Assembly (NCBI GenBank): GCA_037134875.1
Contig: JBAXLH010000004.1
Location: forward strand, 1,233-65,232
DNA: 64,000 nt
Reading direction: 5' to 3'
Source of the DNA: a bacterium
GTDB taxonomy: Bacteria; Patescibacteriota; Minisyncoccia; Phycocordibacterales; DATDWN01
Shown in pieces: positions 45,041 through 48,207 of the stretch. Every line of letters starts with the position of its first letter. The first letter of the stretch is position 1. Position numbers and translations under genes: made by a program. A model generated the notes under the pieces. The model worked only from the letters and a program-made list of their open reading frames with translations. It was not told the DNA's origin and searched no databases.

Positions 45041-45808
45041 ATGCAAACGGCATTTTGGATCCTCGGGATCATCTATTTCTTGATCGCAATTGTTTTTGCG
45101 GTCAAGAAGACCCGCGAAGTTTTCGTCGGGTCGGTCGAGTGGCCCCGCCGGTACTCCTGCCAATACTATAACAGGAGACAGTGGTGGAAGAAGCAGGTAG
45201 TACCCTGCCTGGGCCAACTGGCCCTGATAGGGGTCTGCTTCCTCTTCTGGGCAACCGTCGGGTTGCCCGCGTGGGTGGCGACCATACCGGTCCGCCGACG
45301 GCAGGCCTGCGAGGTTCAGCGGCGGCGGGAAGAGGATTTGGCCCGTAATAAGGCACGGGCTGAGCGGGTGGCGAAATGGCGGGCGGAGCACCCACCTGTG
45401 CTCTATTACAACAAGAACAACGGCGTTGTCCGTGTCGTCCGCAAGGGCGCCTACGACAACGCTGTTGTGGAGCGGGCTCGCCGGGTTCGCAATGGCGAAG
45501 AGCCGAAAGGTTGCTTCGTCTTCGCGGGTAATCCGGTCATCCTGTTTCTCCACACCTCGGCTGAGGTCAGGGTACCGGAGTGGTCGGCGGGGAAGCTGTC
45601 GGACTTCGACCGGCTCGTGGCAGGCGATTTTGGGCCTGTCGTCGTCGAACGACGGCGGGACATTCTCGTTACTTTCAGTTCGGGGGAGGCGGAACCTTGG
45701 ATGTGGGAACCCTATCGCCAGGGTTCCGACGAGAAGAGGAGGCTGGAGCAGGCGCTCCAGTACCTCCTTCACCAGGACGTTCCCCCCGACGTCCTCGCCG
45801 ACAACTAG
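45041..45808 (+). CDS. GC-rich (about 62% GC) hypothetical membrane protein, probable horizontally acquired cargo
   Basis: 255 aa with two predicted TM helices and an Arg-rich stretch. Composition is sharply different from the ~35% GC background. Directly 3' of tRNA-Pro(CGG), terminator at 45843-45868. Confidence 0.5.
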   Translation: MQTAFWILGIIYFLIAIVFAVKKTREVFVGSVEWPRRYSCQYYNRRQWWKKQVVPCLGQLALIGVCFLFWATVGLPAWVATIPVRRRQACEVQRRREEDLARNKARAERVAKWRAEHPPVLYYNKNNGVVRVVRKGAYDNAVVERARRVRNGEEPKGCFVFAGNPVILFLHTSAEVRVPEWSAGKLSDFDRLVAGDFGPVVVERRRDILVTFSSGEAEPWMWEPYRQGSDEKRRLEQALQYLLHQDVPPDVLADN

Positions 45809-47077: not shown

Positions 47078-47126
47078 TCATATTTCTGGCTACATTTTTT
47101 GATTTTACAAAATAAAATAGGAAAAT

Positions 47127-47168
47127 CTGTCAAAAGTGCTTGACAGATTTTTCATAGTATGCTATCAT
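47127..47168 (+). promoter_or_regulatory. promoter with palindromic upstream motif TGTCAAAAGTGCTTGACA driving GC-rich RNA 1
   Basis: -35 TTGACA 47140-47145, 17-nt spacer, -10 TATCAT 47163-47168. The -35 is part of the inverted repeat tgtcaa-N6-ttgaca, which is also present at 58172-58186. Confidence 0.5.
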
Positions 47169-47175
47169 TATATCA

Positions 47176-47667
47176 GATAAGGTAGCTCAAGGACGGTGCC
47201 CCCGCCCGAGAGTTTAGCCCAAAAGGGCCTACCATCTACCGGATCCGCTTGGGGCGGTTCGGTTTTGTTCCAAGTCGCAGGACTTGGGACTAGGGGACAC
47301 TGATGTGCCAAGGGGTATGTCAGTGAAATGGCCGCCGGTCCGACCGGTCCTAGGAGAGGAGGATGGCGAAGTAGGGAAAGTACGGGTTTACCCCGGAAAA
47401 TCCGCCCGAAAAGCTTAGTTCGCCCTCGTGCGAACCACCTTCTCCCCGAAAACCTGTTGAGTTCCAAGGGACTTGATGGGTAGGGTGTAATGCGCACAAA
47501 CAGTGGCCACTGTTTGTCCGCGCGATCAGGGTCGGTTCGTCGTCAAGGCGGGCCAAAGGTCCTCTGGGGTTTCTCCCTAGAGCACGGCTTCAGAAGCCGT
47601 AGGTTCCGCTCCGCGGACCGACCCTGATCAACACAGAACGGACTCTTCGGAGGACCGTTCTTTTTCT
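47176..47667 (+). ncRNA. unclassified GC-rich structured RNA (~490 nt) with own promoter and intrinsic terminator
   Basis: About 58% GC in a 35% GC background with no convincing ORF. Long-range complementarity (gatcagggtcggt ... accgaccctgatc) and many local hairpins. Terminator gaacggactcttcggaggaccgttctttttc at 47635-47667. Confidence 0.45.
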
Positions 47668-47733
47668 TTATACATTTGCCAGATATGAAAATCCACCACA
47701 CGTGCGTGTGATGGGTTATTTTTTGTACTATTT

Positions 47734-48207
47734 TTACGCGAGGAAAATATCCACGCAATTTTTTTCAATAAATGTTGCCAGATCGCTCGACGATTTGCGA
47801 AGCTCGGAAATACGAGCGGTCGACCTTTCCCTGTTTATGTCAGTTGGTTGCAAATAAATCATAAAACCAGCAGTGGCGATGATTGGAATGAGTGACCATG
47901 TATCAATCGCTCTCGGCATACCCCCGTCTTTTCCGAGGCTCATATTATAGCGGGCGACTGCAATTGCCAGCTTGTTCAAAAATTGATCTTGTGCCAAGTT
48001 GACGGGTATCACGACCCATGGATATGGCTCGAGATTTTTTACATGACCGGCACAAGAACAGGCTGTTTTGTAGCCGATTTTCCAGAGAGTTTTGACGAGG
48101 ACCCTAATACCTTCCTCGACATAGTTAAAACCAATATATTCAAGATTTAGGTCTGGTTCGAGAGGGATAATCTCGTGGCCTTCAAAATCGAATTGCGAGT
48201 TGAACAT
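47734..48207 (-). CDS. hypothetical protein
   Basis: 157 aa, Cys pair CSCAGH; no family recognised. Confidence 0.35.
   Translation of the reverse strand: MFNSQFDFEGHEIIPLEPDLNLEYIGFNYVEEGIRVLVKTLWKIGYKTACSCAGHVKNLEPYPWVVIPVNLAQDQFLNKLAIAVARYNMSLGKDGGMPRAIDTWSLIPIIATAGFMIYLQPTDINRERSTARISELRKSSSDLATFIEKNCVDIFLA

What the first reader, a model, noticed from the sequence alone, without database searches (positions are those of the whole stretch)
47127..47667. Unclassified ~490-nt GC-rich structured RNA with its own strong promoter and terminator
A consensus TTGACA-17-TATCAT promoter drives a 58% GC, ORF-free, hairpin-dense transcript that ends at a clean intrinsic terminator.

Long-range pairing (gatcagggtcggt / accgaccctgatc) encloses the 3' third. 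The motifs GGGAAAGUACGGG, GUGAAAUGG and ACAGAACGG are reminiscent of RNase P RNA, but they occur in the wrong order and spacing.

No tmRNA, SRP or 6S signatures were found. Candidates are a novel large ncRNA, an odd or permuted RNase P RNA, or an acquired RNA, given the foreign-like GC.
Basis: seen in the sequence. Interest (0 to 1): 0.75.

Follow-up and report, generated by a model that had tools for sequence, protein, structure and literature searches.

The report
Orphan structured RNA in CPR bacterium
A ~490-base stretch in the genome of a tiny uncultured (Patescibacteria/CPR) bacterium has the signals of a stand-alone, strongly transcribed, heavily folded non-coding RNA gene, matches no known RNA family (it is not RNase P RNA) and has no detectable relatives, so it is a credible but unproven new RNA.

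Summary
Window 47175-47665 (+) is a 491-nt, 57.8% GC, ORF-free unit. It is bounded by the best sigma-70-type promoter in the window (TTGACA-17-TGcTATCAT) and a cUUCGg hairpin plus U-tract terminator. It folds far better than shuffles (z -5.3 to -6.4), and better on the + strand than the - strand.

It matches none of 4227 Rfam families at E<=10, and no tmRNA or tRNA. The RNase P idea fails three tests: no model hit, whereas a diverged CPR RNase P RNA found in a relative scores 87 bits; the P4 helix cannot form; and sequence similarity equals that of shuffles.

The host is a Patescibacteria MAG. The unit is absent at the same position in the closest relatives, and no homologue was found anywhere, so covariation could not be tested. 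High GC is not evidence of foreign origin, because the host's tRNAs have 49-62% GC.

Two more ORF-free, hairpin-dense units (57625-57900 -, 58215-59010 +) share the same palindromic promoter module (TGTCAA-N6-TTGACA).

Verdict: a plausible orphan structured ncRNA gene of unknown function. It is moderately interesting and unproven without expression data or homologues.

The parts
47122..47151 (+). Perfect 12-bp inverted repeat AAAATCTGTCAA-N6-TTGACAGATTTT. It forms a terminator-like hairpin for the upstream 276-aa gene, and its 3' arm carries the -35 box of B's promoter.
   Evidence: I4, 100% complementary; dG -17.4 kcal/mol. The core TGTCAA-N6-TTGACA occurs perfectly only 3 times in the window, each time at an RNA-candidate promoter.
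47140..47168 (+). Sigma-70-type promoter: -35 TTGACA, 17-nt spacer, extended -10 TGcTATCAT. The predicted start is near 47175-47176.
   Evidence: 11/12 matches, TG present; best promoter of the window. The start site is inferred from spacing and was not measured.
47175..47665 (+). Predicted ~491-nt non-coding transcript ('B'), 57.8% GC.
   Evidence: No ORF with an RBS, no Pfam hit, no codon periodicity. No Rfam hit.
47238..47263 (+). Hairpin ACCGGA-u-CCGCU / GGCGG-UUCGGU.
   Evidence: pair probability 0.93.
47267..47290 (+). 10-bp hairpin GUUCCAAGUC-GCAG-GACUUGGGAC.
   Evidence: pair probability 1.0.
47298..47325 (+). 12-bp hairpin CACUGAUGUGCC-AAGG-GGUAUGUCAGUG with 3 G.U pairs, so it forms only on the + strand.
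   Evidence: pair probability 1.0; G.U count read from the sequence.
47365..47424 (+). Central local domain that contains the RNase P CR-I-like 12-mer GGAAAGUACGGG (47375-47386). It is closed by GGCGAA/UUCGCC, and the CR-I-like segment pairs locally (CGGG/CCCG, UAGG/CUUA).
   Evidence: pair probabilities 0.73-0.96; 11/12 identity to the E. coli CR-I.
47452..47481 (+). 13-bp hairpin ACCUGUUGAGUUC-CAAG-GGACUUGAUGGGU with 5 G.U pairs, so it forms only on the + strand.
   Evidence: pair probability 0.99.
47492..47523 (+). Hairpin GCGC-ACAAACAGU-GGCC-ACUGUUUGU-cc-GCGC.
   Evidence: I3.
47524..47629 (+). 3' domain: a 16-bp closing helix around a three-way junction (hairpins 47562-47582 and 47584-47600). 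This is the most strongly structured part of B (z -6.9).
   Evidence: I1.
47636..47669 (+). Intrinsic terminator: a 6+3-bp stem with a cUUCGg tetraloop, then UUUUUCUUU. Its 3' arm can alternatively pair with 47189-47197 (AAGGACGGU), giving a 5'-3' end closure (dG -14.3).

Best explanation
Window 47175-47665 is a stand-alone gene for a ~491-nt non-coding, highly structured RNA. It is specific to one Patescibacteria lineage.

What the sequence shows:
- A terminator-like hairpin ends the upstream gene, and its 3' arm carries the -35 box of a near-consensus extended -10 promoter.
- The body is a chain of about 12 stable hairpins, unrelated to one another in sequence, arranged in a 5' region, a central closed domain and a 3' three-way-junction domain.
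- The unit ends at a UUCG-capped intrinsic terminator that faces the terminator of a convergent gene.

What is inferred:
- The housekeeping RNA polymerase transcribes it at a high level.
- The RNA folds co-transcriptionally into local hairpins.
- After release, its 5' and 3' ends can pair (AAGGACGGU/ACCGUUCUU), as in many stable RNAs.
- It acts in trans as a stable RNA, not as an mRNA, a leader or an antisense RNA.

My best guess at the role is a protein-binding scaffold or decoy for RNA-metabolism proteins (about 0.2 on its own). It sits among such genes and has no detectable base-pairing target.
For: - Promoter and terminator: best promoter in the window and a clean terminator.
- Folding: z -6.35 for the whole unit and -5.3 for the body, against -3.0 for the opposite strand. 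The + strand structure is 30 kcal/mol weaker when mirrored onto the - strand. Two long helices contain 3 and 5 G.U pairs.
- Composition: GC equals that of the host's tRNAs.
- Not coding: no RBS-preceded ORF, no codon periodicity, no Pfam or protein-database hit.
- Not a repeat cluster: the hairpins are unique sequences, unlike the REP/MITE-like clusters seen in other CPR loci.
- Context: 650 nt of non-coding DNA is unusual in a streamlined CPR genome whose relatives have 21-67-nt gaps at this position.
- Promoter type: the same palindromic promoter word drives tRNA genes in other metagenomic loci. It also precedes two more ORF-free hairpin-dense units in this window.
- Neighbours are RNA-metabolism genes: CCA-adding enzyme, RNase Y and an RNHCP protein, a PD-(D/E)XK/RAP-like protein that sits next to rRNA, RNase P RNA or tRNA genes in other CPR, and a TYW3-like-fold protein.
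Against: - No homologue was found by any route, so there is no covariation and no evidence of selection.
- All four assemblies that carry it are 100% identical over their whole lengths.
- It is absent from the syntenic site in the nearest relatives, so it is young or recently acquired.
- Nearby GC-rich genes are compositionally foreign (GC3 0.66-0.75), so the region does accept foreign DNA.
- The architecture is mostly long, near-perfect local hairpins with no GNRA loops or recognisable tertiary motifs. That is less typical of ancient catalytic or 'ornate' RNAs.
- The G.U strand asymmetry is modest for B as a whole (19 vs 14 G.U pairs in the two strands' MFE structures).
- There are no expression data.
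- The large scans were limited. The source MAG is not in the genome collection.
Confidence: 0.5

Rival explanations
1. Non-functional DNA. A recently acquired or decaying GC-rich fragment lies between convergent genes. Its hairpins and expression signals are residual or fortuitous, and selection has not yet removed it.
For: - Lineage-specific insertion with no homologues.
- Neighbouring islands are compositionally foreign.
- Zero polymorphism, so no sign of selection.
- 'Beads-on-a-string' hairpins without tertiary motifs.
Against: - The AT-rich, host-type promoter (best in the window) and the terminator sit exactly at the GC boundaries.
- Folding z of -5 to -6 lies beyond composition, and the fold is strand-specific in the direction of the promoter.
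- CPR genomes are streamlined, and relatives have almost no spacer at this position.
Confidence: 0.25
2. A founding member of a new class of large mobile-element or phage-type 'ornate' RNAs, analogous to ROOL and GOLLD. It would possibly form an RNA-only assembly and was acquired horizontally together with nearby cargo.
For: - Size, stand-alone unit, proximity to tRNA genes and lake-metagenome origin.
- Two sibling units share the same promoter module, which also occurs on a low-GC phage contig.
- Absent from relatives.
Against: - No ROOL, GOLLD or OLE model hit at E<=10.
- No relatives in 50,697 phage records, 72,556 plasmids or IMG/VR word scans.
- Neighbours have no PHROG or PADLOC hits.
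- No flanking direct or inverted repeats.
- No GNRA loops or receptors.
Confidence: 0.1
3. A cis-acting hairpin array: a transcription insulator, multi-terminator or 3'-end stabiliser between convergent genes, like REP/BIME clusters, and not a trans-acting RNA.
For: - It lies between convergent genes.
- Other CPR loci carry hairpin-repeat clusters in intergenic gaps (L144 4398-4985, L146 3580-4164).
- The upstream inverted repeat doubles as a terminator.
Against: - B's hairpins are not repeats of one another or of anything else in the window.
- It has its own strong internal promoter downstream of the upstream gene's terminator hairpin.
- Both flanking genes have their own terminators.
Confidence: 0.05
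4. An extremely diverged or rearranged RNase P RNA (rnpB) of this lineage.
For: - CR-I-like GGAAAGUACGGG (11/12) and ACAGAA near the 3' end.
- CPR RNase P RNAs are known to be diverged and missed by default thresholds (PMC8172020).
- In relative L145 a real rnpB lies just downstream of the homologue of B's upstream gene.
Against: - No RNase P model hit at E<=10, even when only the relevant 329 nt are searched, whereas the diverged L145 RNA scores 87.4 bits.
- The P4 duplex is -5.2 against -12.1 kcal/mol for E. coli, and there is no room for the P4 and P1 3' strands before the terminator.
- Alignment scores to CPR and E. coli RNase P RNA equal those of shuffles.
- The CR-I-like segment is paired locally inside a closed domain.
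Confidence: 0.03
5. An mRNA for one or more small proteins.
For: Short ORFs of 35-51 aa exist on the + strand.
Against: - None has a usable Shine-Dalgarno sequence, unlike the neighbouring GC-rich genes, which have AAGGAGG.
- GC by codon position is flat, not the 0.65/0.45/0.70 pattern of the GC-rich genes here.
- No Pfam or database hits.
Confidence: 0.03

Closest known systems
Bacterial RNase P RNA, type A (Rfam RF00010), including the diverged CPR forms described in PMC8172020
   Same: - Similar size class.
- Stand-alone stable-RNA gene with promoter and terminator.
- An 11/12 match to the CR-I core and an ACAGAA near the 3' end.
- Possible 5'-3' end pairing.
- In one CPR relative, a real rnpB occupies a comparable position downstream of the homologous flanking gene.
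   Different: - No covariance-model match.
- The P4 helix cannot form.
- No P2 or P1 3' strands.
- Overall similarity equals that of shuffled controls.
- The CR-I-like motif is buried in a local stem.
Large bacterial ncRNAs of unknown function: ROOL, GOLLD, OLE, raiA
   Same: - Hundreds of nucleotides long and non-coding.
- GC-enriched relative to an AT-rich genome.
- Independent transcription unit.
- ROOL and GOLLD often lie near tRNA genes and on mobile DNA, and GOLLD was first seen in lake metagenomes (from my knowledge and PMC12286853).
   Different: - No match to any of their models.
- No family of homologues and no demonstrated conserved structure.
- The architecture is dominated by long local hairpins, not multi-junction tertiary folds.
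Protein-sequestering RNAs (6S RNA, CsrB/RsmZ type)
   Same: Abundant stand-alone structured RNA with no mRNA target. This is the mode of action I consider most likely.
   Different: - No 6S-like rod with a central bubble.
- No repeated loop motif such as GGA.
- No Rfam hit.
REP/BIME/MITE-like intergenic hairpin clusters (seen here in CPR loci L144 and L146)
   Same: GC-richer hairpin-dense DNA in an intergenic gap between convergent genes.
   Different: - The hairpins are unique, not repeated units.
- It has its own strong promoter and terminator.
- Several helices depend on G.U pairs and so form on one strand only.

Membership tests
RNase P RNA (bacterial A/B, archaeal, nuclear; Rfam clan CL00002) | Match to the family covariance model. 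| tested here: not met
   No hit at E<=10 on 701-nt and 329-nt searches. The positive control, the diverged CPR RNase P RNA in L145, scores 87.4 bits, E 3.6e-27.
RNase P RNA | Long-range P4 helix between the strand 3' of GGAAAG (CR-I) and the strand 3' of ACAGAA (CR-V). | tested here: not met
   Duplex energy -5.2 kcal/mol against -12.1 for E. coli. ACAGAA is followed at once by the terminator stem.
RNase P RNA | Conserved CR-I and CR-V sequence blocks in the correct order. | tested here: inconclusive
   A CR-I-like 12-mer (11/12) lies at position 206 and ACAGAA at position 464, in the right order. CCGGCUUA is missing, and the hallmark patterns are absent from the window.
RNase P RNA | Detectable sequence homology to known members. 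| tested here: not met
   Local and global alignment z of -1.2 to +0.8 against shuffles, versus 5.6 for CPR against E. coli RNase P RNA.
tmRNA / tRNA-like | tRNA-like domain and tag reading frame. | tested here: not met
   ARAGORN finds only 5 tRNAs elsewhere in the window. No Rfam tmRNA hit.
ROOL, GOLLD, OLE, raiA, HEARO, 6S, SRP, group I/II introns, riboswitches (Rfam 15) | Match to the family covariance model. | tested here: not met
   The best hits are noise (E 0.16-10, microRNA and sRNA models).
Cis-regulatory leader / riboswitch | A downstream gene in the same orientation under its control. | tested here: not met
   The unit ends at a terminator and the next gene is convergent (47734-48207, - strand).
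Protein-coding gene | An ORF with an RBS, codon-position composition bias, or homologues. | tested here: not met
REP/MITE-type repeat cluster | Multiple copies of the same palindromic unit. | tested here: not met
   No significant self or window repeats. The rest of the MAG could not be searched.
Transposon-like mobile insertion | Terminal inverted repeats or a target-site duplication. | tested here: not met
   none flank 47078-47733.
Conserved structured ncRNA (generic criterion) | Homologues with compensatory base changes. | not testable with these tools
   No homologue was recovered. All copies are identical.
Independent sigma-70 transcription unit | A promoter and an intrinsic terminator bracketing the unit. 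| tested here: met
   This rests on sequence signals only; transcription was not measured.

The most novel reading that the evidence does not exclude
B, together with the two sibling units at 57625-57900 (-) and 58215-59010 (+), forms a set of lineage-specific, highly expressed large structured RNAs in an ultra-small, probably episymbiotic CPR bacterium. All three are driven by a shared terminator-embedded palindromic promoter module (TGTCAA-N6-TTGACA). This would be a previously unrecognised class of large ncRNAs, for example RNP scaffolds or RNA-only assemblies, in a phylum where almost nothing is known about non-coding RNA beyond rRNA, tRNA and RNase P RNA.
Probability: 0.15. Interest if true: 0.8.

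Novelty: new variant of a known kind. Interest (0 to 1): 0.42.

Why it matters
Patescibacteria (CPR) make up a large share of bacterial diversity and have about 1-Mb genomes with very little spare DNA. Even so, their non-coding RNA repertoire is essentially uncharted, and even their RNase P RNAs escape standard annotation.

A streamlined genome that keeps a 490-nt, strongly promoted, strongly folded non-coding unit, plus two more nearby with the same promoter module, suggests lineage-specific structured RNAs with real roles. If that is confirmed, these would be new large RNAs for structural and functional study.

If it is not confirmed, the case is a useful caution. High GC, good promoters and strong folding z-scores in a single genome do not establish an RNA gene. 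Short motif resemblances such as an 11/12 CR-I match can also mislead.

Tried and rejected
**Known RNA families**
- Rfam at gathering threshold and at E<=10 on the whole window, on B, and on B's 3' 329 nt: nothing.
- ARAGORN: no tmRNA or tRNA in B.
- RNase P: rejected by the P4 test, the shuffled-alignment test and calibration against a real diverged CPR RNase P RNA.

**Coding**
- Rejected.

**Homologue searches, all negative**
- blastn against phages and plasmids.
- Five word or motif scans of IMG/VR. The 3 hits were chance 18-mers.
- A three-motif scan of 185,579 species genomes gave 9 hits, all chance.
- The spurious-ORF trick against 5.8 billion proteins found nothing.
- A metagenome scan with the promoter 18-mer returned 118+ loci, none related.

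**Synteny and neighbours**
- Synteny walks through homologues of both flanking genes found no B-like neighbour.
- An identical-HU look-up for sister strains found only the same strain.
- No flanking repeats that would indicate a mobile element.
- Not a repeat cluster.
- Antisense targets among neighbouring RNAs and 5'UTRs: none beyond shuffles.
- Phage or defence affiliation of neighbours: none.

**Literature**
- No description of such an RNA in CPR.

Full report
**1. What is there**

A -35 TTGACA (47140-47145) is followed after 17 nt by an extended -10 TGcTATCAT (47160-47168). My own scan of both strands of the whole window finds only four sites with at least 11 of 12 matches. This is the only one that combines the optimal spacer with a TG.

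The -35 box forms the 3' arm of a perfect 12-bp inverted repeat (47122-47151; dG -17.4). That repeat looks like the terminator of the upstream 276-aa gene.

The predicted transcript (about 47175-47665, 491 nt) has 57.8% GC in a 39.2% GC window. It ends in a stem capped by a cUUCGg tetraloop and followed by UUUUUCUUU (dG -13.1). The next gene (47734-48207) is convergent and has its own terminator.

**2. Is the structure more than chance?**

Yes.
- The full unit folds at -228 kcal/mol, z = -6.35 against dinucleotide shuffles. The reverse complement gives z = -3.6.
- Without the terminator, z is -5.3 on the + strand and -3.0 on the - strand. The 3' domain alone gives -6.9.
- About a dozen hairpins have pair probabilities of 0.9-1.0.
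- Two long hairpins contain 3 and 5 G.U pairs, so they exist only on the + strand.
- Mirroring the + strand structure onto the - strand costs 30 kcal/mol. For B as a whole the G.U asymmetry is modest (19 vs 14).

**3. Not coding**

- The longest + strand ORF is 51 aa and has no Shine-Dalgarno sequence.
- A 109-aa ORF on the - strand has no Pfam hit and no relative among 5.8 billion proteins.
- GC by codon position is flat (0.64/0.55/0.57). The GC-rich protein genes nearby show 0.60-0.72 / 0.43-0.46 / 0.66-0.75.

**4. Not a known RNA**

Rfam 15 (4227 models) finds only five tRNAs in the window at gathering thresholds. At E<=10 it returns only noise on B. ARAGORN finds no tmRNA.

**5. The RNase P question**

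This needed care. PMC8172020 reports that 10 of 35 complete CPR genomes had RNase P RNAs missed at default thresholds. I also came across such a case: in relative L145, a gene-free gap downstream of the homologue of B's upstream gene carries GAGGAAAGUCCGGAC...AACAGAAUCCGGCUUAUGGCUUACC. Rfam's gathering threshold missed it.

In sensitive mode, however, that RNA scores 87.4 bits (E 3.6e-27) end to end against RF00010. B scores nothing under the same conditions.

B does contain GGAAAGUACGGG, an 11/12 match to CR-I, and ACAGAA near its 3' end. Three things argue against RNase P:
- The strands that should form P4 give -5.2 kcal/mol, against -12.1 in E. coli. ACAGAA runs directly into the terminator stem.
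- The CR-I-like segment is paired locally inside a closed domain.
- Local and global alignment scores of B against both the CPR and the E. coli RNase P RNAs equal those of shuffled B (z -1.2 to +0.8). The two real RNase P RNAs give z = 5.6 against each other.

I therefore reject RNase P membership.

**6. Host and evolutionary context**

The exact flanking protein places the window on contig CAZJNJ010000003.1 of MAG GCA_964547445.1. The same sequence occurs in a JGI lake metagenome and two SRA runs. Homologues carry Patescibacteria and Parcubacteria names.

In the closest relatives the 650-nt gap does not exist. In the 76%-identity relative the next gene starts 21 nt after the stop, and in the 64% relative it starts 67 nt after. 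So B, and probably the adjacent 157-aa gene, is a lineage-specific insertion. There are no flanking direct or inverted repeats.

The 157-aa gene has nine homologues in varied CPR contexts, none with a B-like neighbour.

The four assemblies that carry B are 100% identical over up to 12.8 kb. There is therefore no polymorphism to analyse.

**7. Search for relatives**

Every search was negative:
- blastn against phage and plasmid collections.
- Word and motif scans of IMG/VR (chance hits dismissed).
- A three-motif scan of 185,579 species genomes: nine chance hits. The source MAG itself is not in that collection.
- The spurious-ORF trick.
- A look-up of the identical HU protein to find sister strains.
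- The single metagenome scan, spent on the only element with demonstrated conservation, the promoter 18-mer. None is similar to B, and the known self contig was not among them.

This negative result is therefore weak. Covariation could not be tested.

**8. 'Foreign GC'**

B's GC lies within the range of the host's five tRNAs (48.6-61.6%). It is what a structural RNA in an AT-rich genome should look like, and it is not evidence of transfer.

The neighbouring GC-rich island genes are different. Genes 45041-45808, 59099-59470 and 59607-59882 have GC3 of 0.66-0.75, against 0.32-0.47 for host genes. They are compositionally foreign, so the region does take up DNA. The island A protein has a small family of 18 remote relatives (19 hits including itself) whose composition looks low-GC.

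**9. Siblings**

Two other ORF-free, hairpin-dense units lie in the window:
- 58215-59010 (+): MFE -359, z -10.3, with 32 G.U pairs on the + strand and 15 on the - strand.
- 57625-57900 (-): z -8.1.

Neither has an Rfam hit at E<=1. The larger unit (58215-59010) has no phage relative; the smaller unit was not searched.

The perfect palindrome TGTCAA-N6-TTGACA occurs exactly three times in 64 kb, at the promoters of these two units and of B (expected 0.44 even when one mismatch is allowed). B and the 58-kb unit share 17 of 18 positions.

The same module, AAAAACCTGTCAAAAATGCTTGACAGGTTTTTT followed by TGcTATAAT, drives a protein gene on a 32% GC phage contig. The 18-mer lies directly upstream of tRNA genes in several metagenomic loci. 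It is therefore a generic strong 'terminator-embedded' promoter, not a marker for a specific RNA.

**10. Neighbourhood**

B lies among RNA-metabolism genes: CCA-adding enzyme, RNase Y and an RNHCP protein, and RsmE and NUDIX.

- the 23S rRNA in L005,
- RNase P RNA in L145,
- CCA-adding enzyme plus tRNA in L144 and L146.

B shows no unusual complementarity to the siblings, to the tRNAs or to neighbouring 5'UTRs.

**11. Rival model from other CPR loci**

Strongly 'structured' gaps in L144 and L146 (z -7.5 and -10) proved to be clusters of repeated palindromic units. B's hairpins are not repeats of each other or of anything else in the window. That rival is therefore disfavoured, although the rest of the MAG could not be checked.

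**12. Verdict**

- The best explanation is an orphan, independently transcribed, stable structured ncRNA (0.5). It most plausibly acts as a protein-binding scaffold or decoy; that step is inference only.
- The main rival is non-functional, recently acquired DNA (0.25).
- Interest is moderate. Singleton candidates are common outputs of GC/IGR-type screens. Three such units with a shared promoter module in a streamlined CPR genome make a worthwhile lead for metatranscriptomics and an exhaustive covariance search.

Noticed in passing
window 58215-59010 (+), promoter 58169-58216: A second, larger ORF-free, hairpin-dense unit of about 790 nt. MFE is -359 kcal/mol and z -10.3. It contains 17-bp near-perfect hairpins and has 32 G.U pairs on the + strand against 15 on the - strand. 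There is no Rfam hit at E<=1 and no phage match. It ends at a hairpin (58978-58998) with a weak U-tract, so it may instead be a long structured leader of the GC-rich ORF at 59099.
   Followed up: partly
window 57625-57900 (-), promoter 57933-57905 (-), bidirectional terminator 57628-57665: A third ORF-free structured unit of about 260 nt (z -8.1) with no Rfam hit. It is transcribed divergently from the 58-kb unit across a 290-nt AT-rich spacer full of short palindromes, and it is convergent with a TrmB-family regulator gene (56848-57609).
   Followed up: partly
window 47128-47145, 57928-57945, 58169-58186; also L023 1744-1761: The perfect palindrome TGTCAA-N6-TTGACA occurs exactly three times in 64 kb, each time overlapping the -35 box of one of the three RNA candidates. 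It extends to 10-14-bp A/T-flanked hairpins that look like terminators of the upstream gene. The same terminator-embedded promoter module occurs on a 32% GC phage contig, and the 18-mer lies upstream of tRNA genes in metagenomic loci L043, L125 and L092.
   Followed up: partly
window 45041-45808 (+); 59099-59470 (+); 59607-59882 (+): Three GC-rich protein genes (GC3 0.66-0.75 against 0.32-0.47 for host genes), each with a strong RBS, a host-type AT-rich promoter and a terminator. They have no Pfam, PHROG or PADLOC hits. The 255-aa protein has only 18 remote relatives (19 hits including itself) among 1.8 billion representatives. They appear to be compositionally foreign cargo. The first lies immediately 3' of tRNA-Pro(CGG).
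   Followed up: partly
L145 11382-11838 (+): A bona fide but diverged CPR RNase P RNA that Rfam's gathering threshold misses (87.4 bits against a cut-off of 100). It has a 123-nt insertion in the P8 region and lacks P12-P14 consensus. It lies two genes downstream of a homologue of B's upstream gene. This fits the report in PMC8172020.
   Followed up: yes
[not shown]
   Followed up: partly
[not shown]
   Followed up: partly
L144 4398-4985; L146 3770-4164: Intergenic clusters of repeated palindromic units in other CPR genomes (for example cgagctcagctcg, ggaagctcagcttcc, and cacgtggcaaagccacgtaaaaaatcgc...). They give folding z-scores of -7.5 to -10. These are REP/MITE-like elements that can be mistaken for structured RNA genes.
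   Followed up: partly
L005 about 2970-3531: An uncalled region in the 64%-identity relative is a TTGACA-17-TATACT promoter, a leader and the 5' end of the 23S rRNA, two genes downstream of the homologue of B's upstream gene.
   Followed up: partly
window about 32000-33300: Large ORFs switch from almost all - strand (1.7-33 kb) to mostly + strand (33-64 kb), and the cumulative GC skew reaches its minimum at about 33 kb. This suggests a replication origin near there.
   Followed up: no
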